Virus record (IMG/VR): IMGVR_UViG_3300045921_000263
Coordinates: 1 to 52,182 of that record
Origin: a virus
Lineage: Duplodnaviria > Caudoviricetes
DNA length: 52,182 bases
Strand: one strand, 5' to 3'
Shown: piece by piece, positions 20,356 to 52,182 of the stretch
Position numbering within the stretch: position 1 is the stretch's first letter
Layout of the letters: every line of letters begins with the position of its first letter
Program-made: the position numbers and the translations under genes
The notes under the pieces: model-generated
What the model saw: only the letters and a program-made list of their open reading frames with translations
The model's database searches: none
What the model was told of the DNA's origin: nothing

Positions 20356-20367
20356 ACAGAACTAAGC

Positions 20368-20396
20368 TAGTCGCAGCCCCACCCTTGGGCTAAGCT
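20368..20396 (+). promoter_or_regulatory. putative promoter for helicase
   Basis: TAGTCG-N17-TAAGCT then AAGGAG RBS; weak -35. Confidence 0.35.
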
Positions 20397-20417
20397 GGCG
20401 TCAGAAAAGGAGAAACT

Positions 20418-26991: not shown

Positions 26992-27045
26992 TCGAGCATT
27001 GGCCGCAAGCTGCGACCAAGCAATAGCTCAGAAATGGAGTCACCG

Positions 27046-27708
27046 ATGACCGATGCCATCACTTTCCTTGACAAGTCCTACACTCGTGCCGACCTTGAAA
27101 GCATGACTGACGAAGCTCTCCTGGAGCTCAGGAACCTCGTTGCTTCCAATCTCGGCGTTGCTTCTGTGAAAGGCTTCAAGGACCACACGACCGCTGTTGA
27201 GCAAACCCTCAAAGCTCTCAAGAAATATGAAGCCTCTGCTGAACCGGATGAAGAAAAGCCGGTGAAGCAACCCAAGGAGCGCAAACTGGCGAAGCCTGCA
27301 GAAGCTCAGCATGTCAAGCGGCCGACCCGGAAAATGTTCTCCGTGATGAAAATCGTGAAGCCGTTCGATGGCCAAGAAGATCGCTCTCACCGTTCCGGAA
27401 ACTACAGGGATGGTATGATGATCATCGAGGCGATCGAAGGTGAAGGCACTCTCGCTTGGGACATCTACAACTGGGAGAAGCAAGGCTACGTCCAGGTGAT
27501 CGAGCCCACTGAAGAGGAATATGCACAGCGTCGCGCTGCGTGGTATAAGGAGAAGGGTCGCGAAGACCCTGATGTCGCGAAGATCCGTATGCGTGAAGAG
27601 CGTGAGAAATCCAAAGCTGAGCGAGAAGCTGAGCGAGAAGCCAAGAAAGCTGAACGGGAAGCTGCCAAGGCTGCGAAGAAAAACGCCGAAGCTCAGGCTG
27701 CCGAATAA
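27046..27708 (+). CDS. hypothetical protein with charged helical C-terminus
   Basis: GGAG RBS before ATG 27046 (alternative start 27034); biased codon usage; coupled to next gene. Confidence 0.7.
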   Translation: MTDAITFLDKSYTRADLESMTDEALLELRNLVASNLGVASVKGFKDHTTAVEQTLKALKKYEASAEPDEEKPVKQPKERKLAKPAEAQHVKRPTRKMFSVMKIVKPFDGQEDRSHRSGNYRDGMMIIEAIEGEGTLAWDIYNWEKQGYVQVIEPTEEEYAQRRAAWYKEKGREDPDVAKIRMREEREKSKAEREAEREAKKAEREAAKAAKKNAEAQAAE

Positions 27709-28595
27709 TGATTATTGAACGCATCAATGCGTTCTTTGAGTATCTCAATGAACGCGAAAACGTCCGCCTTCGAAAGGAGGCGGGCGATTTCTTTCCGTGG
27801 ACTGAGGATGAGATCCTCAGAACCTATAAGTTCACCAACGTTCGGCGTCAACACGACCGGACCAGCATGGAGCTTAGAGAGCGTTTCTACACACCACACT
27901 ACGAAGATGACAATCGCTCAATCTTGATGAACTGTGCCACATACCGATATTTCGGGACGTGGGAGTTCGCTTCTGCTATTGGATGGCAATCGTATGATGA
28001 CTTCGATTTTGATATGATCGAAGAAATCGCAACAGATCGTCTCAACAACAGAGAGCGTGTTTTCACAGGTGCATATGTCATTACAAATCAAGGGATTCCT
28101 GCCCCAAAACAGGAAGTTGTGGTGCATTATTTTCTCAAGGCTCTTTGGAAAGCGACGCCGGAGATCGTAAATCTAGCTCAGACCACACAGTCTTGGGAAC
28201 AGGTCGCCAAGCGCATGATGAGGCTGAATGGCTTCGGAGGCACTGGCTTCATGACCAAAGAAGTTCTCTTGGACACGACCTACACTGGCTTCTGGAAAGG
28301 ACGCCAGCTCAATGAGCACATGTCTTTCCCGATTGACTGGTTCAAATGGACCCCAATCGGCCCAGGAGCTCTCCGTGGTGCGGCTCGTGTCCTTGGGGAC
28401 GATCAGGCTAAGCCACTCAAGAACGAGCAGGCTTTTCAGTGCATCATGGAACTTGTGAACTTACAGCACCTGTTCTTCAAGCACGATTTTGAACTTTCAC
28501 CGACGGATATTCAGTTCGGTCTGTGTGAGTTCGACAAGTATGAGCGTGTTCGTCTTGGACAAGGAAAGCCGAGAAGTAGATACAATGCTCCCTGA
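27708..28595 (+). CDS. aGPT-Pplase1 / 5-hmdU DNA kinase helical-domain protein (DNA-glycosylase-like fold)
   Basis: ERE.VR..K..G...PWT.D.IL..YKFTNVRR..DR, FTGAY, GPGA.RG, DIQ..LCEFDKY.R motifs; no Walker A. Confidence 0.8.
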   Translation: MIIERINAFFEYLNERENVRLRKEAGDFFPWTEDEILRTYKFTNVRRQHDRTSMELRERFYTPHYEDDNRSILMNCATYRYFGTWEFASAIGWQSYDDFDFDMIEEIATDRLNNRERVFTGAYVITNQGIPAPKQEVVVHYFLKALWKATPEIVNLAQTTQSWEQVAKRMMRLNGFGGTGFMTKEVLLDTTYTGFWKGRQLNEHMSFPIDWFKWTPIGPGALRGAARVLGDDQAKPLKNEQAFQCIMELVNLQHLFFKHDFELSPTDIQFGLCEFDKYERVRLGQGKPRSRYNAP

Positions 28596-28794
28596 CTCTA
28601 TTTTCTGGATTCTACTCTACTGGCTGATCATGTGGGCAATGTTCCTACAGTGGTATAGCCAAGAAGTAGAATCCGGACAAAGACCCAAGATGAGCTGGCT
28701 CATTCTAGTGCTGACATTCCTATTCGTCGGCTTTGTTCCATTATTGTTCCTTTTCTTTTCTATAAAGAAAGCTATAGAAAAGACAAAACGATAG
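28585..28794 (+). CDS. small two-TM membrane protein
   Basis: Two hydrophobic segments, basic C-terminus. Confidence 0.5.
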   Translation: MLPDSIFWILLYWLIMWAMFLQWYSQEVESGQRPKMSWLILVLTFLFVGFVPLLFLFFSIKKAIEKTKR

Positions 28795-28823
28795 TTGTCT
28801 TTTGTGTGCCCCAGCTATATGCT
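28782..28823 (+). promoter_or_regulatory. phage promoter for glycosyltransferase operon
   Basis: GACAAAAC-N5-TTGTCT-N17-TATGCT. Confidence 0.65.
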
Positions 28824-28856
28824 GGGGCTCATACTGTATAACTCGAGGAAGCTAAC

Positions 28857-30143
28857 ATGAAGATAGCTGTAGCCCTCCATTCCTGCATGGATCTTGGAGG
28901 TATTATCAATCACACAGAGCAACTGATCGGCGGTTTTCAAGACCTAGGACATGTAGCTCATCTGTATGAGCTTGTCTACGCCGACAACGCAATTACTCAA
29001 ATTCGCTCTGGTGATTTTGAGTTCAACGGACCTAGTGGAATTCCGTTCGCTCAGGGTAAGGGCTGGAATTTTCACAAATCTGCACGTCTGTCCTACAAGA
29101 CCTCTCCTGGGCTTGTGAACGCAAAGCACATTTTGAGCCAGTATGATATCGTCATCTGGACAGTGCCTGTTCCTCCCAAGAACAGGCAACAGCTCGGCAA
29201 CGATAAATGGCCAGAACTCTATGATCTTGATCCTAGGATCAAGCAAATTGCTTTCATTCATGATGGTAACGCTAGGAGTAATTCTCTCCATCTATATCAT
29301 GTTGCAGAGCACATCTCTGGTCTTGCCTGTGTTCACGAATGTGCACTCAACTCTGCTGATATTTTCCCTATCCCGCGCGCGCTGGTATTGAACCCACAGT
29401 TCATGCCAATTCGTGAATACCCAGAGTGGGATGACAAGTTCACTGGCTTCGTAAACATGCAGACATTCAAAGCATGGAAGCATGTTCATGAGCTCATTCA
29501 GGCTATTGCCTACATGCCGCCCAAAGAACCGGGCGAGCTGCGGGAAGTCGCTGGTAAAGGGATCGAGTATCAGTATATGACCTCGATCGACAAATGCAAA
29601 GAGATTTACTACCACAACGACCCTGAGAAGCCTTTTCATGGGCGCAAGTTCTGGGACGTTGCTCTCGAGAACGGTATGAAGCATCATGACTATTGGCCAA
29701 CACCAGATGTAGACGAATGGCTAAAGATGGCCCGAGTTTTGGTAGATCCGAGCTGGTCTGCGAAATACAGTGCCATTGGTGGTCACTGGAACAGAGTAGC
29801 TGTTGATGCCATGATCCGCGGTGCGGTGCCTGTTGCACAGAAGCGTGGTATGGGAACTTCTCTGTTCAAGCCCAAAGTTCATTACGTTCCGCTGGATGGT
29901 GCGCGAGATGCTCAGGATTATGCAGATATTGTTCTAGAGACAGGACACATGTCTGCAATCCAGGCTCGTAGTTTCCAGGAAGCTGCTCGTGAACTTCTGC
30001 CGCAGTTTGATCGAAAGGCGATTGCTCGTCGTGTTATCGATCTAGCAAACGGCGAAGTAGAAACTGAGATCGGAGCTGCCGATCCAGATCTGCGTGAGAA
30101 GTTCGAAAATCAGATGTTCGATCACTTTGGAATTATCGCATGA
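28857..30143 (+). CDS. GT-B fold glycosyltransferase (putative DNA-modifying)
   Basis: MKI.......D.GGI N-terminal loop, FIHDG, F..WK, and VDPSW......WNRVAVDAMIRGAVPVA nucleotide-sugar-binding signature variant. Confidence 0.75.
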   Translation: MKIAVALHSCMDLGGIINHTEQLIGGFQDLGHVAHLYELVYADNAITQIRSGDFEFNGPSGIPFAQGKGWNFHKSARLSYKTSPGLVNAKHILSQYDIVIWTVPVPPKNRQQLGNDKWPELYDLDPRIKQIAFIHDGNARSNSLHLYHVAEHISGLACVHECALNSADIFPIPRALVLNPQFMPIREYPEWDDKFTGFVNMQTFKAWKHVHELIQAIAYMPPKEPGELREVAGKGIEYQYMTSIDKCKEIYYHNDPEKPFHGRKFWDVALENGMKHHDYWPTPDVDEWLKMARVLVDPSWSAKYSAIGGHWNRVAVDAMIRGAVPVAQKRGMGTSLFKPKVHYVPLDGARDAQDYADIVLETGHMSAIQARSFQEAARELLPQFDRKAIARRVIDLANGEVETEIGAADPDLREKFENQMFDHFGIIA

Positions 30144-31168
30144 AAGTCATCACAGCGCGCGGTGTGAACGATGCTATCCTTCTTGGGCTTTCTTTGCTGA
30201 AAGTCGAAGGTGTAGATCGAGAATCCAGAAATGGTCCTGTTCGGGTGTTTCCAGGACCCGTTACTACTCACTATCAGCATCCGGAGGAGCGTGTTCTATT
30301 TCACCCAGAAAGGGACGCGAACCCATACTTCCATTTCATGGAAAGCCTCTGGATGCTATCTGGAAGACGTGATGTAGAATGGATCAGCCGATTCTCTAGC
30401 AACATTGCAAACTACAGCGATGACGGAGTCACTTTTCATGGTGCTTATGGCTATCGCTGGCGAAACTGGTTTGGAGTATGCGAATATTTGCCTGACGGCA
30501 CAATTCGCGAACTTGGCAAAATCAATCAGCTTGCCACAATCGCCAACATCCTGAAATCTGATCCAGATGATAGACGAGTAGTTCTCCAGATGTGGGACGT
30601 TTGTCAAGATCTTGGACGTGATGGAAAGGATTTTCCATGCAATGTAGTCGCAACGTTCCGCATTAATCCCTACGGCAAATTGGACATGACCGTCTTCAAT
30701 AGGTCAAACGATATGATCTGGGGTGCCTATGGCGCGAACGCTGTTCACTTCTCAATGCTCCAAGAAGTAATGGCATCTTGGATCGGTGTGCCGATGGGTG
30801 GCTACTGGCAAGTGAGCACAAACTTCCATAGCTACCATTCAACTCTTGAGAAGCACTCTAAGCTGATTGGTATCTGTCCTGGATTTGATCCATACGAGCT
30901 AGGCGAAGTTCGGCCTATTCCTGTCGTCAATGGCCCAATAGAGCAGTGGTTTCAAGATCTGCACATGTTCATGGAGGTAGGTCCCGCCATTGGGTTCAAG
31001 GACAAGTTTTTCAAGAAAACAGCAGTTCCGATGCTACAGTCTTGGGAAATGTGGAAAAACGCTGAAAGCCCGAAACGCATTGAAAATGCGATGAGATATG
31101 CCAGTGAGATCGAAGCGCCAGATTGGCGTAGGGCCTGCCTAGAATGGCTAGATCGGAGAAAGAAATAA
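30140..31168 (+). CDS. thymidylate-synthase-family dUMP hydroxymethylase (putative)
   Basis: SRNG, D.PCN catalytic Cys, RSND..WG..GAN with Asn at the dUMP-specificity position, NFH.Y; M6/YuA-type subfamily. Confidence 0.8.
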   Translation: MKVITARGVNDAILLGLSLLKVEGVDRESRNGPVRVFPGPVTTHYQHPEERVLFHPERDANPYFHFMESLWMLSGRRDVEWISRFSSNIANYSDDGVTFHGAYGYRWRNWFGVCEYLPDGTIRELGKINQLATIANILKSDPDDRRVVLQMWDVCQDLGRDGKDFPCNVVATFRINPYGKLDMTVFNRSNDMIWGAYGANAVHFSMLQEVMASWIGVPMGGYWQVSTNFHSYHSTLEKHSKLIGICPGFDPYELGEVRPIPVVNGPIEQWFQDLHMFMEVGPAIGFKDKFFKKTAVPMLQSWEMWKNAESPKRIENAMRYASEIEAPDWRRACLEWLDRRKK

Positions 31169-31716
31169 TGTATGATGATATCGTCTGCGATGTAACTCGC
31201 ATCAAATTCGCTCGAGAAGGTGCTTCAGTTCTTCGCACACATACTCAATCTGGGATTGGTCCACACTTCGTCGGAATGCACACTTTCAACATGATCACCA
31301 TGTTGAAGATCCTTCACCCTAACCCTTCTATCAACCTCGTTTGGGCTGTTATGGAGCATGATATCCCAGAGAGAATGACAGGCGATATACCACATCCTGC
31401 AAAGAAAGCTGGTCTAGTCAATCATGATCAGCAGTCTGCATTTGAAAAACATCTGAAAATCGCTGTATTTGGAGAAGATCATCTTAGCCAGCTCAGTGAA
31501 GAAGATCTGAAATGGCTTAATGGTCTGGACATGTTAGAATTCTATTGCTGGTGTAAGGACCAGATAATGATGGGAAATCGCATGATGGAAAGAAAACTTC
31601 ATGCGGTCGAAAACTATATGGAACAATACAAGTTCATGTATCCAGAAAAGATTGTGGACACCTATTACGCAATCCGCAGTCACAACTGGCAAACAATGTC
31701 TGATATCGGAGGTTAA
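31168..31716 (+). CDS. HD-domain nucleotidase (YfbR-like)
   Basis: V.R.H, V..H, HD.PE..TGD.P, D.LE motifs. Confidence 0.75.
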   Translation: MYDDIVCDVTRIKFAREGASVLRTHTQSGIGPHFVGMHTFNMITMLKILHPNPSINLVWAVMEHDIPERMTGDIPHPAKKAGLVNHDQQSAFEKHLKIAVFGEDHLSQLSEEDLKWLNGLDMLEFYCWCKDQIMMGNRMMERKLHAVENYMEQYKFMYPEKIVDTYYAIRSHNWQTMSDIGG

Positions 31717-32321: not shown

Positions 32322-34396
32322 TGGTCGTTCGCACAAAAACGAATCCAAATAATGGAGGCTGTCTCCAACTTGGGTTTTTCATGCCAGAGGCGAGCTGGCG
32401 TCCTCCTTCAATTTCAGATCTCCCTTCTTGGAAGGGCGCAAAAAGAATAGCGATTGATGCCGAAACAAGAGACCCTAGTATCGTTGCGAATCTAGGATCT
32501 GGTTCTATAAGAGATGGGTATACTGTAGGATGGGCCTTCGCAATCGAAGGAGGGCCGAAATACTACCTACCAATTCGTCACGAAGGAGGCGATAATCTCC
32601 CAGTAGAACAGGTTCTGCACTACCTGCGAGAACAGATCAAAAATTTCACTGGAGAGTATGTGGGAGCTAATCTCGCATACGATGTTGATTATGGATACAA
32701 TGATGGGTTTGAATGGCATCCTGATGCGACTTTTCGAGATATTCAAATTGCAGATCCTCTGATTTACGAGCTACACCGAAGCTATTCTCTCGAAAATATC
32801 GGCAAGCGAAATGGTGTTGAAGCTAAAGATGAGCGACTCTTGATAGAAGCAGCAGAGGCCTTTGGCCTTGATCCAAAAGCGGGACTGTGGAGACTACCTG
32901 CACGATATGTCGGAGCCTATGCAGAGAATGATGTGACATCTCCGCTAGAAATTCTACGCATACAAGAGAAGCGTATCGACCAAGAAGGCCTACGGAAAAT
33001 CTGGGACTTAGAAAGTCGCACTCTGCCTGTGCTAGTTCGTATGCGCCGACGTGGTGTTCGCATAGATTTTGACAAGCTCATTCAAATCGAAGAATGGACT
33101 AAAGTTGAAGAACAGGCTGCTCTTGACCTGATTCGTCGACATACTGGTGTCAGAGTTGCATTCGGTGATGTGTGGAAAGCCTCTGCTCTTGCTCCTGCGT
33201 TAGAGGCTATCGGTATGCGTCTGCAAAAAACAGCCCAAGGACAGCCACAGATTGACCGCTTCCTCTTGGGTGGAAGTAATCATCCTGTTTGTGAGGCAAT
33301 TCTCCGTGCTCGAAAAGTGAACAAGATTCGCACAACTTTTGCTGAGAGCATCAGAAAGTATGCAGTCAACGGAAGAATTCATTGCTCTTTTCGTCAGATT
33401 GCATCAGAAACTGAGAGCGGAGAGCAGAAAGGTGTTCGCTATGGTCGTCTTTCTGCAATTGACCCAAACCTTCAGCAACAGCCTAGCCCGGATCGAGACC
33501 CAGAAATCGCAGGTGAATGGCGCAAGATCTTCATCCCAGAAGAAGGTGCGATCTGGGGCTGCAATGACTATTCTCAGCAAGAGCCCAGATGGACGACGCA
33601 TTTCGCAGCTGTGATGGACTTGCCTCGTGCTCGTGAGGCTGCCCTGCGCTACCAGAACGATCCCAACACTGATAACCACGAGATGATGACCAGATTGGTC
33701 TACACAGATGCTCAAGTTGAAGAATGGCTAGCAAAAGATCCAAAGGCTTTCAAAGTTCATCGTGGATATTCAAAGAACATCTTTCTTGGACTTTGCTACG
33801 GTGAGGGTGGAGCAAAGCTCTGTCATGATATCGGCAAGCCTACTCGCTGGTGTGTTTTCTATGGTATTGGTGCTGATCGACGTGTAGAGTATTTCGAAAA
33901 TCGTCGAGAAGCCATGGATTACAGAAACCAAATCGGAAGAGGACATATTCGTGAAGTTGCAGGTGAAGAAGGTCAACAGATCCTAGACAATTTCGATGCA
34001 GAAGTGCCATATGTGCGCCAGCTTGCTAGAGCGGCGACAAGAAGAGCAGAGATGAAAGGCTACGTTAGAACTATTCTTGGTCGCAGGCTCAACTTCGAGC
34101 AGCGAGAGGACGGTTCCTATGACTATACGCACAAGGCGCTGAACAGGATTATTCAGGGGAGCAGTGCAGATCAAACGAAGCTCGCTATTTGTGAGCTTGA
34201 CAGAGCAGGTTATTTTCTTCAGTTGCAAGTTCATGACGAGACTGATGGAAGCTATTCCTCAGTCGCCGAAGCAAAAGCAGCAGGTGAAGTGATGCGTGAC
34301 TGTATCTTGAGCATGGTTCCTGGAAAGCTGTGGGTTCCTTTCAGAGTTGACACAGAGGTTGGACCTTCCTGGGGTGAAATCAAAGGTGTGAAATGA
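32321..34396 (+). CDS. DNA polymerase, family A
   Basis: D.ET exonuclease motif, GRLS..DPNLQQ, DYSQQEPR, K...LG..YG.G, N..IQGS.AD, QVHDE. Confidence 0.95.
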   Translation: MVVRTKTNPNNGGCLQLGFFMPEASWRPPSISDLPSWKGAKRIAIDAETRDPSIVANLGSGSIRDGYTVGWAFAIEGGPKYYLPIRHEGGDNLPVEQVLHYLREQIKNFTGEYVGANLAYDVDYGYNDGFEWHPDATFRDIQIADPLIYELHRSYSLENIGKRNGVEAKDERLLIEAAEAFGLDPKAGLWRLPARYVGAYAENDVTSPLEILRIQEKRIDQEGLRKIWDLESRTLPVLVRMRRRGVRIDFDKLIQIEEWTKVEEQAALDLIRRHTGVRVAFGDVWKASALAPALEAIGMRLQKTAQGQPQIDRFLLGGSNHPVCEAILRARKVNKIRTTFAESIRKYAVNGRIHCSFRQIASETESGEQKGVRYGRLSAIDPNLQQQPSPDRDPEIAGEWRKIFIPEEGAIWGCNDYSQQEPRWTTHFAAVMDLPRAREAALRYQNDPNTDNHEMMTRLVYTDAQVEEWLAKDPKAFKVHRGYSKNIFLGLCYGEGGAKLCHDIGKPTRWCVFYGIGADRRVEYFENRREAMDYRNQIGRGHIREVAGEEGQQILDNFDAEVPYVRQLARAATRRAEMKGYVRTILGRRLNFEQREDGSYDYTHKALNRIIQGSSADQTKLAICELDRAGYFLQLQVHDETDGSYSSVAEAKAAGEVMRDCILSMVPGKLWVPFRVDTEVGPSWGEIKGVK

Positions 34397-35100
34397 GATA
34401 TGGAGTTTTGGTGAACGGAGACTTCGAAGAAAGATCTCTCATTAAAATGACCGCTCCGGGTTTCTCTCGTCCCATGTTGGGACGTAGCGGAACTTATGAC
34501 GAATATGTCATGAAAGAGATCAATCGAAGCTACGGCAAGCTAGATGTGAAAAATCGTGTCGTTTTGGACATCGGTGCAAATATCGGCTGTTTCTCTCTTT
34601 GGGCTTTGGGCAAAGGAGCTAGACATGTGATCTCTTTAGAGCCAGAATTGAATAACTTCAATATGCTGGAGCTGAATTTGAAAGATGAGACTAACTTCTC
34701 TCTTTACAACGAAGCCCTAGCCGCTGATAAAGATGGAGAAGGTATTCTCTATCTCAGCAAAACTGGCAAAAATCCTGGGAATTCAAGCACAACACCTCGT
34801 CGAGGCCGGATTGGAGTTTTGATCAACTACATGTCTGTAGCCCAACTCAAAGAATACCATCCGGATATAGATGTAGCGAAAGTTGACTGTGAAGGCGCAG
34901 AGTATGATTTCATGAAAACTCTGGTCGAAGCATATCCAAATATGCGACAGGTAGCACTAGAAATTCACATCAGTGGTTTTGGACTTCTAGCTGCAATCTC
35001 TTTGCATAACCTGATGCTTGATGCAGGCTTCACTGCTATTGTTCCACCACGGCTAGATAATGAGAGTCTTTGGCAAACTCTAGCGACATATGAAAGATGA
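34393..35100 (+). CDS. FkbM-family SAM-dependent methyltransferase
   Basis: VLDIGANIG.FS, EP...N...L..N, KVDCEGAEY, EIH. Confidence 0.85.
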   Translation: MRYGVLVNGDFEERSLIKMTAPGFSRPMLGRSGTYDEYVMKEINRSYGKLDVKNRVVLDIGANIGCFSLWALGKGARHVISLEPELNNFNMLELNLKDETNFSLYNEALAADKDGEGILYLSKTGKNPGNSSTTPRRGRIGVLINYMSVAQLKEYHPDIDVAKVDCEGAEYDFMKTLVEAYPNMRQVALEIHISGFGLLAAISLHNLMLDAGFTAIVPPRLDNESLWQTLATYER

Positions 35101-43454: not shown

Positions 43455-43808
43455 ATGTCGTATGGTATCTACACTTGGGAGTTGGAAGAACTGACTGTTT
43501 TCAACGCCCTTGATGACAAAGAACCAAAGAAAGTCAACGTTGAGTTTGTTCTTGTCTGCACTGATCCAGGCACGCCAGAAAGTGGAAGATTCGGTCCGCC
43601 GGAATTCTATGATCCAGGTGAAGCTCCCACATGGGAAATCGAGAGCATTCAGATCATCTTTGAAAATTCTCCTCCTCTTGGCATTACCGAAAATCAATTC
43701 ATGGAATTATTCCCAAGAGGAGACAGTATAATTGACATGGCTATCGAATGTGCTCTTGACAACGGTATTGTAGAGTCTGAATCCGATCCGGAGCCTGATT
43801 ACGAATGA
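43455..43808 (+). CDS. hypothetical acidic protein
   Basis: GGAGG RBS; GPPE..DP.E.P motif. Confidence 0.65.
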   Translation: MSYGIYTWELEELTVFNALDDKEPKKVNVEFVLVCTDPGTPESGRFGPPEFYDPGEAPTWEIESIQIIFENSPPLGITENQFMELFPRGDSIIDMAIECALDNGIVESESDPEPDYE

Positions 43809-44326
43809 ATTTGTTCGTGCTTGACGAAGATCCAGCCGCTTCGGCGGCTGGACTTGACGATAAACGCATTGGCAGTGCCCTGCGTGAAGTCAACCAGATG
43901 ATGTCTACTGCGCTTGCTCAGAGCGGCGTAGAGGGCGCTAGCGTAGGGCCGGGGCTGCTATGCCGCCCAAGCCATCAACGCCATCCAGTGACGCTCTGGG
44001 TGGGCCAGACAAGCGGCAATTTTGCGTGGGCATACGCCTATGCAATGGCGCTCATTAAAGAATGGCAACTCCGCTACGGAACATGGCATAGCTCTAGCGA
44101 TAGAACACCATACATATGGAGATTTAGGACTTGCATTCCTCAAGGCCCTCTGTTACCGTTCCAAAATAGCGCGAGACACGGTGGATTGGGGCTTGACTTC
44201 ACGCATCTGCCAGTTCCAGAATCATACCGAGCGTATATTCAGGAGCGCTGGCTGACAGACAAACGGCCTCCGACCTACACGAATCGGGAGTGGCCTGAAT
44301 GGGTGAGCTGGAACCAAAAAGCATGA
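43805..44326 (+). CDS. pyrimidine-dimer glycosylase / endonuclease V-like protein
   Basis: MN.F.LD.DP..SA..L.DK....E..QM.ST, H..HP.T.W, EW..RYG..H motifs. Confidence 0.7.
   Translation: MNLFVLDEDPAASAAGLDDKRIGSALREVNQMMSTALAQSGVEGASVGPGLLCRPSHQRHPVTLWVGQTSGNFAWAYAYAMALIKEWQLRYGTWHSSSDRTPYIWRFRTCIPQGPLLPFQNSARHGGLGLDFTHLPVPESYRAYIQERWLTDKRPPTYTNREWPEWVSWNQKA
43912..44000. repeat. dispersed phased element E
   Basis: CTCAGAGCG...CGCTCTGGG arms; GA at 43921/43931, TC at 43975/43984/43995. Confidence 0.6.
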
Positions 44327-47799: not shown

Positions 47800-48075
47800 T
47801 CCGGCGCCAGCTTTGCGTGGGTTGCGCTAAACTGGGGCGCGGTGGATGCCCAACGGCTGGCGGCGGGAGCTAGTGTGGTTAAAACTATTTATCTTTTTAT
47901 ATATTATAAAGAATAATAATATATAGTAAAAGCAAGGGGATAGGGTTTAGGGCATAGGACCATACTTGGCTCAGTATAAGGGTTAAAGACGTTATATGAC
48001 CAGTCGGTAGATTAGGGAGTTTTGTGATGCAATTTTTCGGTGGGATTAGGGAGTTGTGCTGCAACTTTGGGTAGA
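47800..48075. other. non-coding region with AT-rich tract sharing motifs with 20117-20355 in inverted orientation
   Basis: GGGTTGCG at 47819, CCATACTT at 47960, AT-rich tract ~47880-47930. Confidence 0.4.
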
Positions 48076-48135
48076 TTAATATGATACACGAGAGATCCTC
48101 TTCGTCAAGATCTCACGCACAGATAGGAAACGAAA

Positions 48136-48804
48136 ATGGATGAAGATCGCGATCCCGAAAGTCAAGAATTCACTCCAGAATACAGCAACGTCAGAAGGCG
48201 TCCTCGCTCTCTGCTCGCTCGTGGATCCAAGCCGGTCCTGGTCCAATATCAGGATGAACACGGAAATTGGCGATCGAAGATAAAAATGTCCCGGATAAAA
48301 TTCGGGGATGCAGAAAAAGGAGTCTTTCTAGAAGTCTTCCGCAAATGGGGAAGAATGGGAGAGGCGGCTGCGGCTGCCGGAGTCTCAACCCAATGTGTCC
48401 GAAAAGCGATCCACGAAGATGAAGATTTCGCCGAGGCTGTTCTCATGGCCGAGGAGGAATACAAGGAGAAGCTCATTGGGCATCACCAGAATCTCGTCTT
48501 CAATGGGACGATAAGGAAGAACTACGATCGCAAAGGGAATGTCGTCTCCGAAGAGACCATCTATCCCATCCGACTGATCGAGCTTGAACTGAAAAAGCAC
48601 GATCCTGGCTACAGAGAGAAGCAGGAAGTCAGCGTGAATCATTCTGGCGGCGTTCTCATCGCGCCTGCCGAGATGGCGTCTGTCGACGACTGGGAGAAGC
48701 GTTTCTCCAATATGAAAGATGTGACTCCCTCCGAAAAGAGCTACGATCCTGCTCCTCTTGGGCATACAGACGATAATGAAGAAGACGAAGGCTGGCCTCG
48801 CTGA
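48136..48804 (+). CDS. terminase small subunit (putative)
   Basis: HTH (FL......G....AA..AGVS), D.DFA.A...A, L....LK...P.YRE..EV...GGVL..P. Confidence 0.75.
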   Translation: MDEDRDPESQEFTPEYSNVRRRPRSLLARGSKPVLVQYQDEHGNWRSKIKMSRIKFGDAEKGVFLEVFRKWGRMGEAAAAAGVSTQCVRKAIHEDEDFAEAVLMAEEEYKEKLIGHHQNLVFNGTIRKNYDRKGNVVSEETIYPIRLIELELKKHDPGYREKQEVSVNHSGGVLIAPAEMASVDDWEKRFSNMKDVTPSEKSYDPAPLGHTDDNEEDEGWPR

Positions 48805-48873
48805 CCGAGGCTGGCCTTGATGACCGAGTGAAATTGAACGAGTGAGTCCATCCGATTCTTTCCGGATGGATCA

Positions 48874-49055
48874 ATCTTCATTTTCATCTTCATCTTCATC
48901 TTCTTCATCCGTCAGACGATGATAAAGAAGACGAGGATAAAGAAGACGATTGACAAAATAGAATTCATCACCTTCATCATCTTCATAAAAATGATGATGA
49001 AGATAAAGAACACGAAGATGAAGATAAAGAAGACGAGGATAAAAAAGAAGAAGAC
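48874..49055. repeat. (TTCATC)n / (GAAGAT)n low-complexity block 1
   Basis: Two pyrimidine-then-purine tract pairs in inverted arrangement. Confidence 0.85.
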
Positions 49056-49071
49056 CACGATCGTCGAGACA

Positions 49072-49112
49072 GACAAATACGAATTTTCTTCTGAGTAGTC
49101 GCATACTAGGGT
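49072..49112 (+). promoter_or_regulatory. phage promoter (GACAAATA box)
   Basis: GACAAATA-N4-TTTTCT-N17-TAGGGT. Confidence 0.65.
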
Positions 49113-49148
49113 GTAAGCACTAGGCAACTCTCACAAAGGGGAAAATCC

Positions 49149-49421
49149 ATGTCCAAATTCACAAAGGCCGAAATCCGGACCATCTGTCTGTTTTTCGGCG
49201 TTAACCCGTCCGAAGATGTGTGCGAACTTCCGGAAAACTACTTTTTGGAAGAATCGTCCGTGGAACATCCCGTGGGGGATATTCTGCAAGTGCAGCAAAA
49301 CGGCTACGTCGTCACCTTTGAAGATGCGGTGGCCGAATTCGCCAAGCACCCTTGGTATTTCCAGCGGAATTTCGTTGGGCTTGTGGAAGCTCTTAAGCTC
49401 CTCACCGGCGAAGTCAAGTAA
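49149..49421 (+). CDS. hypothetical protein (monocistronic)
   Basis: Own promoter, AAAGGGG RBS, own terminator. Confidence 0.7.
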   Translation: MSKFTKAEIRTICLFFGVNPSEDVCELPENYFLEESSVEHPVGDILQVQQNGYVVTFEDAVAEFAKHPWYFQRNFVGLVEALKLLTGEVK

Positions 49422-49439
49422 TACTGTCGTCAGCGGGAT

Positions 49440-49468
49440 GAGGGCCGAGAAATCGGCCCTCTCTTTTT
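49440..49468 (+). terminator. intrinsic terminator
   Basis: GAGGGCCGA-GAAA-TCGGCCCTC then TCTTTTT. Confidence 0.85.
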
Positions 49469-49477
49469 GAGGATAAT

Positions 49478-49700
49478 ATCGTCATCATTTTCGTCTCTCT
49501 ATGGTTGTTTCTTGATTTCATCTTCTTCATTTTCATCTTCATCTTCATCTTCGAAGATAAATGACCGAGTGAGTTTATCCGAGATGAGATGAAGATATTC
49601 TTGTAGATGAAATGAGATAGATGTGAAGATGACGAAGATAAAGAAGATGACGAAGATAAAGAAGATGAGGATAAAGAAGATCAGGATGAGGATATCGTTC
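49478..49700. repeat. (TTCATC)n / (GAAGAT)n low-complexity block 2
   Basis: Pyrimidine tract then purine tract with repeated GAAGATGACGAAGATAAA. Confidence 0.85.
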
Positions 49701-49712
49701 CTCTCAGATTGA

Positions 49713-49753
49713 GATAAATGGCGCTTTTCTTCTCACCCCTCTTGGGTTAGGTT
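49713..49753 (+). promoter_or_regulatory. phage promoter
   Basis: GATAAATG-N4-TTTTCT-N17-TAGGTT. Confidence 0.6.
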
Positions 49754-49794
49754 GCAGCTATGGGCAATGGTGCTCATCCATAGGAGGCTACCCA

Positions 49795-50001
49795 ATGACG
49801 AAGTTTAAGTTCGCTCCTCGTGAAATCAAAACCAAAGAGGAGCTGCACCTGCTCGCTTTCTACGCCTACTTGCAGTATTTGCACGAAGGCTTTGAGGTGA
49901 CGATTTGCAAGCTGGGCGTGGCGCGGGGTGCTTCGTTCAGCCGCAACCAGCATCCTTTCAACGGGCTGCGTGGGGTTGAAAAGCCCAGCATCTACGCTTG
50001 A
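49795..50001 (+). CDS. hypothetical protein (monocistronic)
   Basis: AGGAGG RBS, own promoter and terminator. Confidence 0.65.
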   Translation: MTKFKFAPREIKTKEELHLLAFYAYLQYLHEGFEVTICKLGVARGASFSRNQHPFNGLRGVEKPSIYA

Positions 50002-50005
50002 AGAC

Positions 50006-50043
50006 AAAGGACCGAGTCGGGTTATCCGACTCGGTCTTTCTTT
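50006..50043 (+). terminator. intrinsic terminator
   Basis: GACCGAGTCGG-GTTAT-CCGACTCGGTC then TTTCTTT. Confidence 0.8.
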
Positions 50044-50052
50044 GGGTTGTTT

Positions 50053-50299
50053 GTTCATCTTCATCTTCATCTTCGTTTTTGAAGATGAAGAAGACTGGAC
50101 GAAGAAAAGAAGACCGGACGAGCGATTCGACCGAGTCGATCAAAACGACCGAGTGGACGAAAACGACCGAGTGGACGAAAACGACCGACGATGAAGACGA
50201 CCGAGCGAGTGGAAACGACCGACGAGGACGAAGAGACCGACGAAGACGAAGAGACCGACGAGGCCGAGACCGACGAGGCCGAGACCGCCGAGGCCTAGA
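50053..50299. repeat. low-complexity block 3 with GACCG tandem array
   Basis: (TTCATC)3 then GAAGAT tract; GACCG at 50129, 50147, 50165, 50183, 50199, 50217, 50235, 50253, 50268, 50283. Confidence 0.85.
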
Positions 50300-50303
50300 A
50301 CCT

Positions 50304-50359
50304 GGGGGCCGGGGGCCGGGGGCCGGGGGCCGGGGGCCGGGGGCCGGGGGCCGGGGGCC
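50304..50359 (+). repeat. (GGGGGCC)8 perfect tandem repeat, G-quadruplex-capable
   Basis: Eight exact 7-bp copies. Confidence 0.95.
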
Positions 50360-50415
50360 ATTGGCTACCTATGGGCAACGCTTAGTTGCCTAATGGGCAA
50401 CGTGCTGCCCTAATT

Positions 50416-50444
50416 TTGCCGTATTTGCTTGCCATACCTATCCT
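50416..50444 (+). promoter_or_regulatory. sigma70-like promoter lacking the GACAAATA box
   Basis: TTGCCG-N17-TATCCT. Confidence 0.6.
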
Positions 50445-50496
50445 TGCCTAGGGGCGGCATGGGGCCGCTACCAGGCACTAGCAAAGGGTCAAAGCA

Positions 50497-50922
50497 ATGG
50501 CTACCACCCCCACCGGCGCCACCGGCGCCTCCACCGGCGCCACCGGCGCCACCACCGCCAAGGCCAAGGCCAAGGCGCCCACCCCCACCGTGGCCAAGGC
50601 CACCATGGCCACCGCGCCCACCGCGCCCACCGCGCCCACCGCGCCCTTGTTCGTGGTCGGCCCGTGGCCGGTCAAGGCTCAGGGCGGCAACTCCATCAGG
50701 GCCTACTGCTACAAGGTGGCCGTGGCGTTGCAGGCGCAGCACCCCGGCGGCTTTACGCTGGCCCAGTATGCCAGCGCCCTTGCGGCCAGCGCCGCTGGTA
50801 GCAACATGCGTCAGCCCGGCACGGGGTGGGGTACGGCGGCCAAGCCCAACGGCGCGGCCTACGCGCACGCCAACTGGTTTGCCCACCCCAAGCAGGGGTG
50901 GCTGGCCCCGGCTGGCAAGTAG
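50497..50922 (+). CDS. hypothetical basic Ala/Thr/Pro-rich protein with no Asp or Glu
   Basis: Promoter, AAAGGG RBS, strong third-position G/C bias, downstream hairpin. Confidence 0.7.
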   Translation: MATTPTGATGASTGATGATTAKAKAKAPTPTVAKATMATAPTAPTAPTAPLFVVGPWPVKAQGGNSIRAYCYKVAVALQAQHPGGFTLAQYASALAASAAGSNMRQPGTGWGTAAKPNGAAYAHANWFAHPKQGWLAPAGK

Positions 50923-50930
50923 CGGCCACC

Positions 50931-50954
50931 GGCCCTGCCCTACGGGGCAGGGCC
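50931..50954 (+). terminator. hairpin after Asp/Glu-free gene
   Basis: GGCCCTGCCC-TACG-GGGCAGGGCC perfect 10-bp stem; no U-tail. Confidence 0.5.
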
Positions 50955-50975
50955 ACTACCCCCAAGGGGATGAAC

Positions 50976-51077
50976 ATGCACAACGTGCTGATACCGCTAG
51001 CAGCAGTGGCCCTTGTGGCCTATGCCCTAGCGCCAACTGTTGCCAAGCTGGCAACAGTGGCGCTAGTGTTGCCTTAA
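50976..51077 (+). CDS. 33-aa hydrophobic peptide
   Basis: AAGGGG RBS; MHNVLIPLAAVALVAYALAPTVAKLATVALVLP; followed by hairpin 51087-51122. Confidence 0.45.
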   Translation: MHNVLIPLAAVALVAYALAPTVAKLATVALVLP

Positions 51078-51245
51078 GGCCACACCCCGCCCTAAGCACG
51101 GCTAGGCCGCGCTTGGGGCGGCAGGCCGCCCTCGATCTACCGTCTCTCCACACCCACCCCAGACTCACTACAAAAGAACTTTACGATCCCCAATCACCTC
51201 CTATTACCCTTGCATCAATTATCAACTCAAGTATACCTATAGAAC

Positions 51246-52182
51246 ATGGTCAGATTTCCTGATAACGTAGTCTGGAAACCCATGAGAGGCTCTCAAGAGG
51301 CTTTCTTGAGTGCCACTCCCATTTTTGAAGTCCTCTTCCAAGGAACTCGTGGCGGCGGTAAAACAGACTGCCTGCTCATGTCCTTTGGGATGCATGTGGG
51401 CAAAGGATATGGTCCCGCCTGGAAAGGAATCTTGTTCAGGCAGACGTATAAGCAGTTGACTGATGTTATCACAAAAACGAAGAAATGGTTTCCACTCATC
51501 TGGCCCGATGCTAGGTTCAACCATTCAGAGCACGTTTGGACTTGGCCGACTGGGGAACAACTGCTGCTTCGTCAGTTCCAGAAGGCAGACGACTACTGGA
51601 ACTATCATGGGCATGAATATCCATGGATCGGATGGGAGGAGCTATGCAACTGGCCGACTGATGAGGGTTACAAGCGCATGATGTCATGTTGTCGGAGTTC
51701 CCAGAAGGGAATGCCGCGCATGGTCCGTGCCACCACTAACCCTTATGGACCCGGCCACAACTGGGTAAAGCATAGATTTCAGCCGCATACCATGAATATG
51801 GTAGTGCGAAAAGATCTAGTTGACGAACATGGAATGAAAGAGCCGACCAGGCTCTCTATTCATAGTCATATCGATGAAAACAAAGCTCTACTAGAAGCCG
51901 ATCCAGACTACAAACAGAAGATTGCGGCTGCTGCTCGAAACGAAGCAGAAAAACGTGCTTGGCTCGAAGGCACATGGGACATCGTATCAGGAGGCATGTT
52001 TGACGATGTTTGGGAGCCGAAGTATAATGTGGTCCCGTCTTTTGAAATTCCCGAAAGCTGGAAGATTGTTCGCTCGTTTGACTGGGGCGCGTCAAAGCCC
52101 TTCTCATTGGGCTGGTGGGCGATCTCCGATGGAAGTGACTTCCAACTTCCAGACGGAAGATGGAGATCGAGTGTTCGTGGAG
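51246..52182 (+). CDS. terL: terminase large subunit (5' part, runs off window; absent from ORF track)
   Basis: W.P..GSQ..FL, GTRGGGKT Walker A, G.LFR, GHEYPWIGWEEL, R.TTNP.GPGHNWVK, SFDWG..KPF. Confidence 0.93.
   Translation, partial: MVRFPDNVVWKPMRGSQEAFLSATPIFEVLFQGTRGGGKTDCLLMSFGMHVGKGYGPAWKGILFRQTYKQLTDVITKTKKWFPLIWPDARFNHSEHVWTWPTGEQLLLRQFQKADDYWNYHGHEYPWIGWEELCNWPTDEGYKRMMSCCRSSQKGMPRMVRATTNPYGPGHNWVKHRFQPHTMNMVVRKDLVDEHGMKEPTRLSIHSHIDENKALLEADPDYKQKIAAAARNEAEKRAWLEGTWDIVSGGMFDDVWEPKYNVVPSFEIPESWKIVRSFDWGASKPFSLGWWAISDGSDFQLPDGRWRSSVRG

What the first reader, a model, noticed from the sequence alone, without database searches (positions are those of the whole stretch)
50300..50968. 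A whole transcription unit written without the dinucleotide GA, encoding a protein with no Asp or Glu
Seen: by manual reading the + strand has no GA from 50300 to 50968, only 3 GA to 51130, and about 10 TC in 50300-51130, whereas ordinary 60-bp lines nearby carry roughly ten GA+TC. The exclusion covers the promoter, the leader, the ribosome site (AAAGGG rather than GGAG), all three frames of the ORF, the stop (TAG) and the hairpin. The 141-aa product has no Asp or Glu (all GAN codons). Inference: GA on the coding strand is TC on the template. If the phage puts a bulky group on T in TC, this looks like a pre-early gene kept unmodified so host RNA polymerase can read it from virion DNA. Its product could then unlock the rest of the genome. 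Established: 5-hmdU hypermodification in M6/ViI/phiW-14-type phages is associated with TG/TC contexts.
Basis: partly seen in the sequence, partly recalled or inferred. Interest (0 to 1): 0.92.

Follow-up and report, generated by a model that had tools for sequence, protein, structure and literature searches.

The report
Phage gene unit purged of GA
A small self-contained gene unit in an uncultured phage, and in about ten of its relatives, has been kept almost completely free of the two-letter word GA, which forces its protein to lack aspartate and glutamate and probably makes its message invisible to something that attacks GA.

Summary
The + strand has no GA from 50299 to 50968 (671 nt; next longest run elsewhere 89 nt). 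With the protein and its own codons held fixed, 8.1±1.9 GA are expected and 0 of 20,000 permutations reach zero.

The unit is an accessory insert between terS and terL: promoter region, an AAAGGG ribosome site, a 141-aa basic protein without Asp/Glu, a 33-aa hydrophobic ORF and hairpins. The same unit lies at the same place in 14 distinct related metagenomic phages. Ten keep 617-1155 nt with at most 3 GA, four are relaxed, and about half also exclude TC. It is the only such island in two complete relatives.

However, a cultured M6-type phage has no such island, a relaxed relative keeps the same genes, and TC exclusion switches between sister phages. That points to an outside, host-dependent agent.

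My best reading (about 0.4) is a message immune to a GA-specific attack on single-stranded RNA, as described for the CmdT mRNA ADP-ribosyltransferase. No mechanism is shown.

The parts
48136..48804 (+). Small terminase subunit gene, the left border of the accessory insert.
   Evidence: phrog_4044, E 7e-23. In CN1 and AN14 terS abuts terL directly.
48805..50298 (+). Two small cassettes (ORFs 49149-49421 and 49795-50001), each followed by a terminator-like hairpin, a (TCTTCA)n tract and a GA-dense tract.
   Evidence: The four GA-densest 100-nt windows of the contig start at 50169 (29 GA), 49580 (27), 48982 (21) and 50066 (21), against a mean of 7.9 (sd 3.0). A homologue of the 68-aa ORF sits upstream of the island in 9 of 18 related loci.
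50066..50298 (+). GA-dense, purine-rich tract that abuts the island: 55 GA in 233 nt, with 70% purine over 50090-50298.
50299..50968 (+). Strict GA-free zone.
50304..50359 (+). (GGGGGCC)x8 tandem repeat at the 5' edge. Public assemblies break here.
   Evidence: 8.0 copies, 100% matches; contigs end at 50302 and restart at 50360.
50370..50444 (+). Promoter region with two TATGGGCAACG-type motifs and two sigma-70-like candidates: TTGCCT-N19-TAATTT at 50386-50416 and TTGCCG-N17-TATCCT at 50416-50444. The start site is not determined.
   Evidence: Reading; motif enrichment 6 matches against 1.0 expected. Relatives share TTGyrc, a 16-18 nt spacer containing GTTGGCTTTTGCCC, and TAnnnT, behind an A/T-rich tract. 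The simple scan did not call either candidate.
50483..50488 (+). Ribosome site AAAGGG, without GA.
   Evidence: Relatives use AAGG-type sites. In the window, 46 of 49 other + strand genes have GA at -20..-4.
50497..50922 (+). ORF of 141 aa: an Ala/Thr/Pro/Lys-rich low-complexity tail followed by a conserved ~90-aa domain. No Asp or Glu; 9 Lys and 2 Arg.
   Evidence: 104 homologues. Model pLDDT is about 84-95 per 10-residue block for residues 51-140. Only weak matches, mostly to winged-helix domains, Z 6.0 or less.
50931..50954 (+). 10-bp G+C-rich hairpin just after the stop codon.
50976..51077 (+). 33-aa hydrophobic ORF that overlaps a long palindrome. Conserved in 3 relatives.
   Evidence: tblastn 60-82% identity in L007, L013 and L023.
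50969..51133 (+). 3' part of the island: 3 GA, no TC, strongly folded, ending in hairpins shared with relatives.
   Evidence: RNA fold of 50915-51140: -130.8 kcal/mol, z -6.3, 0 of 200 shuffles as good. Shared GTGTTGCC-TTAA-GG..ACAC element seen.
51246..52182 (+). Large terminase subunit gene (cut by the contig end), the right border.
   Evidence: 62.5% identity to Bordetella phage CN1 terL.
27708..31168 (+). Thymidine-modification genes elsewhere in the phage, giving context for the rival model: 5-hmdU DNA kinase 27708-28595, a 428-aa ORF 28857-30143, and a thymidylate-synthase homologue 30140-31168.

Best explanation
The island is an accessory, self-contained transcription unit. It consists of a promoter region, a ribosome site without GGAG, a basic 141-aa nucleic-acid-binding-type protein, a 33-aa hydrophobic ORF and hairpins. 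Selection at the nucleotide level keeps its sense strand free of the dinucleotide GA.

Most likely the message is thereby immune to a host agent that recognises GA in single-stranded RNA. The documented example is the CmdT toxin of the CmdTAC defence, which ADP-ribosylates adenine in GA and stops translation; a GA-cutting RNase would work the same way. This one protein could then still be made when every other phage message, all GA-rich and mostly with GA in the ribosome site, is disabled.

The absence of Asp and Glu follows from the nucleotide rule and is not a requirement of the protein.

Shown: the exclusion, its conservation, its strand bias, its nucleotide-level nature and its accessory position. 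Inferred: the agent, the immunity, and a counter-defence role for the protein. The GA-dense tracts beside the island may act as decoy substrate; that is speculation.
For: 1. The avoided word is exactly GA and nothing longer. 111 residual GA in 14 islands show no clear preference for a following or preceding base.

2. GA is avoided in all three frames, in the leader, in the ribosome site and between the ORFs. The ribosome site is of AAGG type in the strict loci, and reverts to an AGGA-containing site in the relaxed L018. In the window, 46 of 49 other genes have GA at -20..-4.

3. An agent of just this specificity exists. CmdT modifies N6 of A in GA of ssRNA, blocks translation, does not act on dsRNA, and acts weakly on ssDNA. 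The authors note that Shine-Dalgarno sites contain GA (PMC11618068, abstract and passages).

4. Sense-strand GA exclusion is the shared feature. 9 of 14 distinct relatives have 2 GA or fewer in the ORF, and 10 of 14 keep 617-1155 nt with 3 GA or fewer, against a background of 7.9-9.9% GA.

5. Homologues tolerate Asp/Glu: 44 of 104 have some. Loci with Asp/Glu also have out-of-frame GA (L012 has 6 in-frame of 20; L018 has 3 of 9). The constraint is therefore on nucleotides and relaxes as a whole.

6. The pattern looks like an arms race. Relaxed islands sit on long terminal branches, and TC exclusion toggles between sisters (L007 TC 0, L013 TC 24). The relaxed G003 keeps the whole modification module.

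7. The unit is accessory. It is inserted between terS and terL, which abut in CN1 and AN14. It is absent from 50,697 phage records and from one genome each of 185,579 species.

8. The highest GA densities of the contig flank the GA-free unit.
Against: 1. About half of the relatives also exclude TC, which is GA on the antisense strand. ORF TC counts are 0 in L007, L011, L025 and L026, 1 in L023 and L024, and 3 in L015. L007 is TC-free for 785 nt and G004 for 811 nt. An mRNA-only agent does not explain this, unless it also hits the single-stranded template DNA. Stems and palindromes also help: in the window the TC-free 3' part is strongly folded.

2. The GA-free zone begins 100-290 nt upstream of the candidate promoters. 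Much of that stretch is tandem repeat, which counts as few independent trials.

3. Other intergenic zones are also GA/TC-poor. There are 9 runs of 45 nt or more in 48 kb against 0.83 expected. By my reading, zone 20136-20321 has 4 hits in 186 nt. This hints at a DNA-level rule for promoters.

4. The host is unknown, so no CmdT-like gene can be tied to it.

5. Nothing shows how a small basic protein would counter such a defence. It has no match in PADLOC, Pfam or PHROGs.

6. No transcript data are available.
Confidence: 0.4

Rival explanations
1. Unmodified-template model. The phage hypermodifies thymidine in the context TC. GA on the sense strand is TC on the template strand, so the unit is a stretch of template without bulky bases. 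Host RNA polymerase can then read it freely from virion DNA, early or at high rate. The basic protein then acts on phage DNA or on the polymerase.
For: - 5-hmdU DNA kinase (PF18723, E 4e-36), a thymidylate-synthase homologue and a dCTP-deaminase-like gene are present. They are kept in 3 of 3 complete relatives.
- The literature suggests a TG/TC preference (PMC6449724, passages).
- It explains co-depletion of TC in half of the lineages, the extension upstream of the promoter, and the other GA/TC-poor intergenic zones.
- Island T content is low, at 14-21%.
- The protein is basic, and its weak fold matches are mostly to winged-helix domains.
Against: - TG and CA are enriched in the islands (observed/expected 1.0-1.7), although TG is the context the M6 kinase is reported to modify.
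- AN14, of the M6 species, has no GA-, TC-, TG- or CA-free run above 170 nt, and no cultured phage has the gene. The island is therefore not a general need of this chemistry.
- The relaxed-island genome G003 keeps the module.
- TC exclusion is all-or-none between sister phages, which is not expected from an enzyme they share.
- All other genes, including the replication genes needed first, carry about 8% GA and must be read from the same DNA. No phage RNA polymerase was seen among the ORFs scanned.
- Codon-boundary enrichment of GA and TC across the genome is generic and goes with TA avoidance.
- The gene lies beside the terminase genes. In well-studied phages (recalled: lambda, T7, P22) that end enters the cell last.
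Confidence: 0.25
2. Immunity at the DNA level to a host agent that marks or cuts single-stranded or modified DNA at GA/TC. Examples would be a DarT-like DNA ADP-ribosyltransferase, a TC-specific nuclease or deaminase, or a modification-dependent nuclease. One gene would then stay transcribable while the rest of the genome is damaged.
For: - It explains exclusion on both strands in class I loci, with stronger exclusion for template-strand TC.
- It fits the host-dependent, on/off pattern on the tree.
- CmdT itself has weak ssDNA activity.
- DarT enzymes with TC-containing motifs are recalled, not checked here.
Against: - Residual GA are not depleted for the complement of a TNTC-type motif, by my own reading of the hexamers listed. 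The avoided unit is the bare dinucleotide.
- Saving one 0.8-kb unit does not save a genome that is damaged everywhere else, unless its product stops the agent quickly.
- Several lineages show no TC avoidance at all (L013 24 against 25.7 expected; L019 16 against 15.2).
Confidence: 0.12
3. No selection on GA as such. The island is a by-product of G+C-rich, repeat-derived, Ala/Pro/Thr-rich coding sequence, or of foreign origin.
For: - The island is 66-70% G+C in a 48% phage.
- About 340 nt of it are short tandem repeats.
- The protein is low in complexity at its N-terminus.
Against: - Codon-permutation and shuffle controls reject it (0 of 20,000).
- The non-repetitive 329 nt 50640-50968 give 0 of 20,000 shuffles without GA.
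- The state is kept across relatives with only 50-74% protein identity and 53-73% island G+C.
- It is unique in complete genomes of 62.8 and 67.7 kb.
Confidence: 0.03

Closest known systems
CmdTAC defence: CmdT, an mRNA ADP-ribosyltransferase specific for GA dinucleotides (PMC11618068; abstract and passages read)
   Same: The recognised word is the same: GA in single-stranded RNA. The Shine-Dalgarno site is noted as a natural target. The effect falls on translation of phage messages, so a GA-free message is the logical escape.
   Different: It was described in E. coli against T-even phages. No GA-free phage gene is mentioned in the passages I read, and my search for such wording found none. 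The host here is unknown, and no CmdT-like gene is linked to these phages. The antisense (TC) exclusion is not predicted.
Post-replicative thymidine hypermodification of M6 / ViI / phiW-14-type phages (PMC5889632, PMC8989533, PMC6449724; passages read)
   Same: The phage belongs to the same wider group (terL 61-62% identical to M6-like AN14 and to CN1). It encodes a 5-hmdU DNA kinase and a thymidylate-synthase homologue.
   Different: The radical-SAM and PLP enzymes annotated in AN14 were not found among the 30 window ORFs scanned against Pfam, so the final base may differ. No modification-free island has been described, and none exists in AN14.
Motif avoidance to escape sequence-specific attack: restriction-site avoidance in phages, ACA-less messages that survive MazF, CpG depletion of vertebrate RNA viruses against ZAP (all recalled, not checked here)
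   Same: A short word is removed from nucleic acid so that a sequence-specific enemy finds no target. Here, as with ACA-less messages, the result is a single protected message.
   Different: Here a dinucleotide is removed completely from one natural 0.7-1.1-kb unit only. The cost is two amino acids and the canonical ribosome site. The state is conserved across a phage clade, next to tracts where the same word is at its densest.
Linker-histone-like / winged-helix nucleic-acid-binding proteins; SPO1 TF1 as a phage protein that binds hmU DNA (recalled)
   Same: The product has a Lys/Ala/Pro/Thr-rich tail and a small helical domain whose weak structural matches are mostly winged-helix domains.
   Different: There is no sequence match to any Pfam, PHROG, PADLOC or PDB family. 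Fold scores are in the range the tool calls common (Z 6.0 or less). Binding was not tested.
Pre-early / first-expressed anti-defence genes (T5 first-step-transfer genes, T7 gene 0.3; recalled)
   Same: The unit is small and self-contained, with host-type promoter candidates that could act before or independently of the rest of the programme.
   Different: Its position beside the terminase genes argues against first entry. Timing is unknown.

Membership tests
Thymidine-hypermodifying phage (5-hmdU pathway) | 5-hmdU DNA kinase | tested here: met
   PF18723 HMUDK_hel, E 4.4e-36, 125 bits against a cut-off of 25, window 27708-28592. Homologues at 60-73% identity in 3 of 3 complete relatives.
Thymidine-hypermodifying phage (5-hmdU pathway) | dUMP hydroxymethylase (thymidylate-synthase homologue) | tested here: met
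   PF00303, E 2.8e-21, window 30140-31165. Hydroxymethylase rather than methylase activity is inferred, not tested.
Thymidine-hypermodifying phage (5-hmdU pathway) | aGPT-pyrophosphorylase and tailoring enzymes (radical SAM, PLP) as in M6 | tested here: inconclusive
   The 428-aa ORF 28857-30140 has only a sub-threshold glycosyltransferase hit and no PHROG. No radical-SAM or PLP family was found among the 30 ORFs scanned. The contig is 82% complete.
Thymidine-hypermodifying phage (5-hmdU pathway) | Modified base present in virion DNA, and in the context TC | not testable with these tools
   Only assembled contigs of public runs are available.
Message adapted to CmdT-type GA-specific RNA ADP-ribosylation | No GA in leader, ribosome site and coding frames | tested here: met
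Message adapted to CmdT-type GA-specific RNA ADP-ribosylation | Host encodes a GA-specific RNA-targeting enzyme | not testable with these tools
   The host is unknown, and the family is absent from one genome each of 185,579 species.
Message adapted to CmdT-type GA-specific RNA ADP-ribosylation | Exclusion limited to the transcribed sense strand | tested here: not met
   TC is also excluded in about half of the lineages, and the zone starts upstream of the candidate promoter.
Winged-helix / linker-histone-like nucleic-acid-binding protein | Winged-helix fold | tested here: inconclusive
   Model pLDDT is about 84-95 per 10-residue block for residues 51-140. Foldseek gives no hit at E 0.001 or better. 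The best VIA-align Z is 6.0, with many winged-helix domains at Z 4.3-6.0, a range the tool calls common.
Winged-helix / linker-histone-like nucleic-acid-binding protein | Basic low-complexity tail | tested here: met
   Residues 1-49 are rich in A, T, P, K and G. The whole protein has 9 K, 2 R and no D or E. Homologues have Lys/Ala/Pro-rich tails.
Relatives of Mesyanzhinovviridae (YuA/M6/CN1-like siphoviruses) | Shared terminase and replication genes | tested here: met
   terL 62.5% identical to CN1 and 61% to AN14; terS phrog_4044. On the terL tree the island-bearing clade is separate, with 100/100 support.
Sigma-70-type promoter | -35 and -10 hexamers at 16-18 nt | tested here: inconclusive
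   Relatives share TTGyrc, a 16-18 nt spacer and TAnnnT. In the window there are only two imperfect candidates, neither called by the scan, and a natural variant alters one of them. No transcript data are available.

The most novel reading that the evidence does not exclude
This is a phage counter-defence built at the level of the alphabet. The unit is a fail-safe gene whose message contains no GA, and so cannot be marked or cut by a GA-specific RNA-targeting immune enzyme of CmdT type. It is flanked by transcribed GA-dense tracts that soak up the enzyme. Its protein has had to evolve without aspartate and glutamate. In some hosts the same rule is extended to the template strand. This would be the first natural case in which an immune effector's dinucleotide specificity dictates the amino-acid alphabet of a viral protein.
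Probability: 0.3. Interest if true: 0.92.

Novelty: new variant of a known kind. Interest (0 to 1): 0.8.

Why it matters
Whatever the agent, the result is unusual. A constraint on a single dinucleotide has held over a whole gene unit through deep divergence (protein identity down to about 50%). It is strong enough to remove two amino acids from a protein and the canonical ribosome site from its message.

If the agent is a GA-specific RNA ADP-ribosyltransferase or RNase, dinucleotide-free units would give a purely computational way to find both phage escape genes and the specificity of unknown RNA-targeting defences. This family would be a candidate inhibitor to test.

If the agent is the phage's own thymidine modification, the island would reveal the sequence context of that modification, which the literature calls unknown (PMC5889632, passage). 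It would also show that hypermodified DNA is costly to transcribe.

Both readings are directly testable with a recoded gene.

Tried and rejected
- 7-deazaguanine modification at GA (DpdA/TGT family): no PF01702 match in the window, while 14 of 14 control genomes matched. The contig is only 82% complete.
- A longer avoided motif (GAN, NGA, or the complement of TNTC): residual GA in 14 islands show no clear context.
- Genome-wide selection for GA/TC as a modification mark: codon-boundary GA and TC are enriched (z 11 and 14), but so are TG, CA, AG and CT, all balancing strong TA avoidance (z -23). No specific signal.
- Loss of the modification genes in relaxed-island relatives: not seen. G003 keeps them.
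- Position at a physical genome end: the direct terminal repeats of G001 and G003 place the island at different distances from the contig ends. Nine of 19 loci end within a few hundred nt of the island, and in the window's own runs contigs break at its tandem repeats, so I read these ends as assembly breaks.
- UV-lesion avoidance at TC: TT and CC are not avoided.
- Hypermutation by a TC-specific deaminase: the island is G+C-rich, not A+T-rich.
- Function from sequence or fold: no Pfam hit above cut-off, and no PHROG, PADLOC or PDB-sequence match. Foldseek gave nothing. ESM Atlas gave only unnamed viral clusters below 0.9.
- Host: no relative of the protein in genome contigs.
- Expression: no RNA holder is listed among the public runs, and only contigs could be laid.
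- Supplements of the papers were not opened. Table 2 and the supplementary figures of PMC6449724, and the extended data of PMC11618068, may bear on context preference.
Full report
**1. The observation.**

The window is a whole IMG/VR virus contig of 52,182 nt, estimated 82% complete. On the + strand GA occurs 4137 times, yet none lies between 50298 and 50969. That 671-nt run compares with 89 nt for the longest run outside this neighbourhood. Three GA follow (50969, 50972, 50990) before GA becomes normal again at 51134.

TC occurs ten times, all between 50441 and 50811. The stretches 50141-50441 and 50812-51132 are the two longest TC-free runs of the contig. From base composition, 35 GA and 32 TC are expected in 50299-50968.

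The ORF 50497-50922 encodes 141 aa without Asp or Glu. The exclusion goes beyond that:
- With the protein and its own codon set fixed, 8.07±1.92 GA would arise at codon junctions, and 0 of 20,000 permutations are GA-free.
- None of the 38 codons that start with A follows one of the 50 codons that end in G.
- The non-coding 50299-50496 and 50362-50496 are GA-free in 0 of 20,000 base shuffles.

TC inside the ORF is not below the permutation expectation (8 against 8.1).

**2. What the thing is.**

The phage is a distant relative of the YuA/M6/CN1 group, with terL 61-62% identical. In Bordetella phage CN1 and Pseudomonas phage AN14, terS abuts terL. Here terS (48136-48804, phrog_4044) and terL (from 51246) are 2.4 kb apart.

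The insert holds three small cassettes. Each follows a terminator-like hairpin, a (TCTTCA)n tract and a GA-dense tract. The third cassette is the island. Its parts are:
- a (GGGGGCC)x8 array;
- a promoter region with two TATGGGCAACG-type motifs;
- the ribosome site AAAGGG;
- the 141-aa ORF;
- a 10-bp hairpin;
- a 33-aa hydrophobic ORF lying in a long palindrome;
- terminal hairpins.

The 3' 226 nt fold far better than shuffles, z -6.3.

The protein has an Ala/Thr/Pro/Lys-rich tail and a conserved ~90-aa domain that AlphaFold models with confidence. Foldseek finds nothing. An exhaustive structural comparison gives only Z 6.0 or less, mostly winged-helix domains, a range the tool itself calls common. 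No Pfam, PHROG, PADLOC or PDB-sequence family matches.

**3. Conservation.**

The family has 104 members at 90% clustering, all from metagenomes. There are none in 50,697 phage records and none in one genome each of 185,579 species.

IMG/VR gave 19 loci, one of them in the window's own phage. This amounts to 14 distinct relatives. Wherever the flanks are present, the gene lies between terS (66-78% identical) and terL (78-87%), often behind a homologue of the 68-aa cassette gene.

| Measure (14 distinct relatives) | Result |
|---|---|
| Stretch of 617-1155 nt with 3 GA or fewer (background 7.9-9.9% GA) | 10 of 14 |
| ORF with 2 GA or fewer | 9 of 14 |
| Codon-permutation P of 0.005 or less | 9 of 14 |
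| Weak or no nucleotide-level avoidance | 4 (L010, L018, L020, L012) |

In two complete relatives (67.7 and 62.8 kb) the island is the only such stretch. On a terL tree the island-bearing clade is monophyletic (100/100). Strict islands occur in every subclade, and relaxed ones sit on long tips. GA-freedom is therefore ancestral and maintained by selection.

Of the 104 proteins, 60 have no Asp/Glu and 44 have a few. Loci whose proteins carry Asp/Glu also carry out-of-frame GA. The protein can accept acidic residues, and the nucleotide rule forbids them.

**4. New features.**

(a) TC is also excluded in about half of the relatives. ORF counts are 0 in L007, L011, L025 and L026, 1 in L023 and L024, and 3 in L015. 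L007 is TC-free for 785 nt. In these genes Ile, Phe, Val and Ser use only TC-free codons. Others show no TC avoidance at all (L013 24 against 25.7 expected). The state switches between sisters on the tree.

(b) Relatives share a sigma-70-like promoter: TTGyrc, a 16-18-nt spacer with GTTGGCTTTTGCCC, and TAnnnT, behind an A/T-rich tract and variable tandem repeats. The GA-free zone starts 100-290 nt upstream of it.

(c) The ribosome site is always of AAGG type without GA. In the window, 46 of 49 other genes have GA at -20..-4 and 25 of 49 have GGAG, GAGG or AGGA. The relaxed L018 has regained AGGA.

(d) The four GA-densest 100-nt windows of the contig (29, 27, 21 and 21 GA, against a mean of 7.9, sd 3.0) all lie in the terS-terL insert. 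The densest touches the island. In relatives the TC-densest window lies just upstream of the island, and GA-dense windows lie between terS and the island.

(e) The residual GA of leaky islands show no clear preferred neighbour, so the avoided word is the bare dinucleotide.

(f) The islands invert the phage's dinucleotide signature. GA and TC go from 1.2-1.4 to 0-0.2 of expectation, and TA from 0.4-0.6 to about 1.

**5.

Its premise is right. The phage encodes a 5-hmdU DNA kinase, a thymidylate-synthase homologue and a dCTP-deaminase-like protein. Three of three complete relatives keep them.

The model would also explain the TC co-depletion, the upstream extension, and the finding that some other intergenic zones are GA/TC-poor. 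There are 9 runs of 45 nt or more against 0.83 expected, notably 20136-20321 ahead of the replication genes.

Several results count against it:
- The only published hint on context is that about half of the resistant restriction sites contain TG or TC, and that the M6 kinase modifies TG (PMC6449724, passages). TG and CA are enriched in the islands.
- AN14, a member of the M6 species, has no GA-, TC-, TG- or CA-free run longer than 170 nt, and no cultured phage has the gene.
- The relaxed G003 keeps the whole module.
- All-or-none differences in TC avoidance between sister phages are hard to derive from an enzyme they share.
- Every other gene of the phage, including the replication genes that must be read first, is GA-rich. 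No phage RNA polymerase was seen among the 30 ORFs scanned.

**6. The reading I prefer.**

An agent with exactly this specificity is known. CmdT, the toxin of the CmdTAC anti-phage system, ADP-ribosylates N6 of adenine in GA dinucleotides of single-stranded RNA and arrests translation. It leaves dsRNA alone and acts weakly on ssDNA. The authors point out that Shine-Dalgarno sequences nearly always contain GA (PMC11618068, abstract and passages).

A message without GA in leader, ribosome site, any reading frame or the inter-ORF spacer is what escape from such an enzyme, or from a GA-cutting RNase, would look like. One modified or cut site can kill a message, which explains why the purge is complete rather than partial.

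The other features fit counter-defence better than a phage-intrinsic need. These are the accessory position among small cassettes, the patchy relaxation on the tree, and the independence from the modification genes.

The antisense (TC) exclusion remains the main difficulty. It could reflect weak action of such an enzyme on single-stranded template DNA, a second agent in some hosts, or, in non-coding parts, the many stems and palindromes. None of this is shown.

I found no paper that describes a GA-free phage gene. One search used the terms 'GA-free', 'GA-less', 'lack GA dinucleotides', 'devoid of GA', 'without GA dinucleotides' and 'CmdT'. The library does not cover all journals.

**7. Other checks.**

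Contigs of four public runs from hot-spring and microbial-mat metagenomes reproduce the island and break at its repeats. One strain differs at 10 positions plus one deletion within 50395-50450. By my reading, none of these creates GA or TC, and one removes a TC. With so few changes this is only compatible, not significant.

No RNA run is listed.

**8. Verdict.**

It is best described as a transcription unit under selection against GA on its sense strand, with optional extension to the other strand.

| Reading | Odds |
|---|---|
| Escape of the message from a GA-specific attack on single-stranded RNA | about 0.4 |
| Another DNA-level host agent | about 0.12 |
| By-product of composition | about 0.03 |
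| Something not yet thought of | the rest |

The phenomenon is a new variant of motif avoidance, and a recoded gene would test it directly.

Noticed in passing
window 48874-48909, 48912-49070, 49505-49552, 49580-49700, 50054-50074, 50066-50298: Each cassette between terS and terL is separated by a pyrimidine tract (TCTTCA-type; 7-12 TC and 0-1 GA) followed by a GA-dense tract (30-55 GA). The tracts are partly complementary and could form long hairpins. In relatives the order of the GA-dense and TC-dense tracts before the island is reversed.
   Followed up: partly
window 50191 to about 50297: Inside the GA-dense tract there is a short ATG-started frame that would give an extremely acidic peptide rich in Asp, Glu and Thr, directly before the gene that has no acidic residues. 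No evidence that it is translated.
   Followed up: no
window 20117-20417: The 300-nt intergenic region ahead of the SNF2-helicase/replication genes is GA/TC-poor, with both-free runs of 38, 72 and 62 nt. It carries four copies of a GTATGG(C/T)(A/C)A motif related to the TATGGGCAA motif in the island's promoter region. It is probably a main regulatory region with a shared regulator site. A similar GA/TC-poor zone exists at the matching place in G001 (43888-43983) but is not among the top runs of G004.
   Followed up: partly
window 47850-48100: An A/T-rich stretch followed by two copies of GATTAGGGAGTT (48010, 48044), just upstream of terS. This is a candidate packaging (pac/cos) recognition region. 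Relatives CN1 and AN14 also have about 650 nt of non-coding DNA before terS.
   Followed up: no
window 27034-31716 and 34393-35100: The modification cluster holds a 5-hmdU DNA kinase, an unassigned 428-aa ORF, a thymidylate-synthase homologue, a YfbR-like nucleotidase and an FkbM-type methyltransferase. The radical-SAM and PLP enzymes annotated in M6-type AN14 were not seen. The final thymidine modification may differ from 5-NedU.
   Followed up: partly
window 43805-44323: An ORF with a pyrimidine-dimer DNA glycosylase domain (PF03013, E 1.8e-6), in a phage found in hot-spring and microbial-mat samples.
   Followed up: no
window 50304-50359 and 50609-50646; loci L007, L017, L019, L021, L022, L024: In the window's own runs, public assemblies break at the tandem repeats inside the island ((GGGGGCC)x8 and (CCACCGCGC)x4). 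Nine of 19 related loci end within a few hundred nt of the island. Many database copies of this family are therefore on truncated contigs.
   Followed up: partly
whole window and related loci: TA is strongly under-represented in these phages (observed/expected 0.39-0.74; codon-boundary z -23 in the window) but not in the islands (0.7-1.6).
   Followed up: partly
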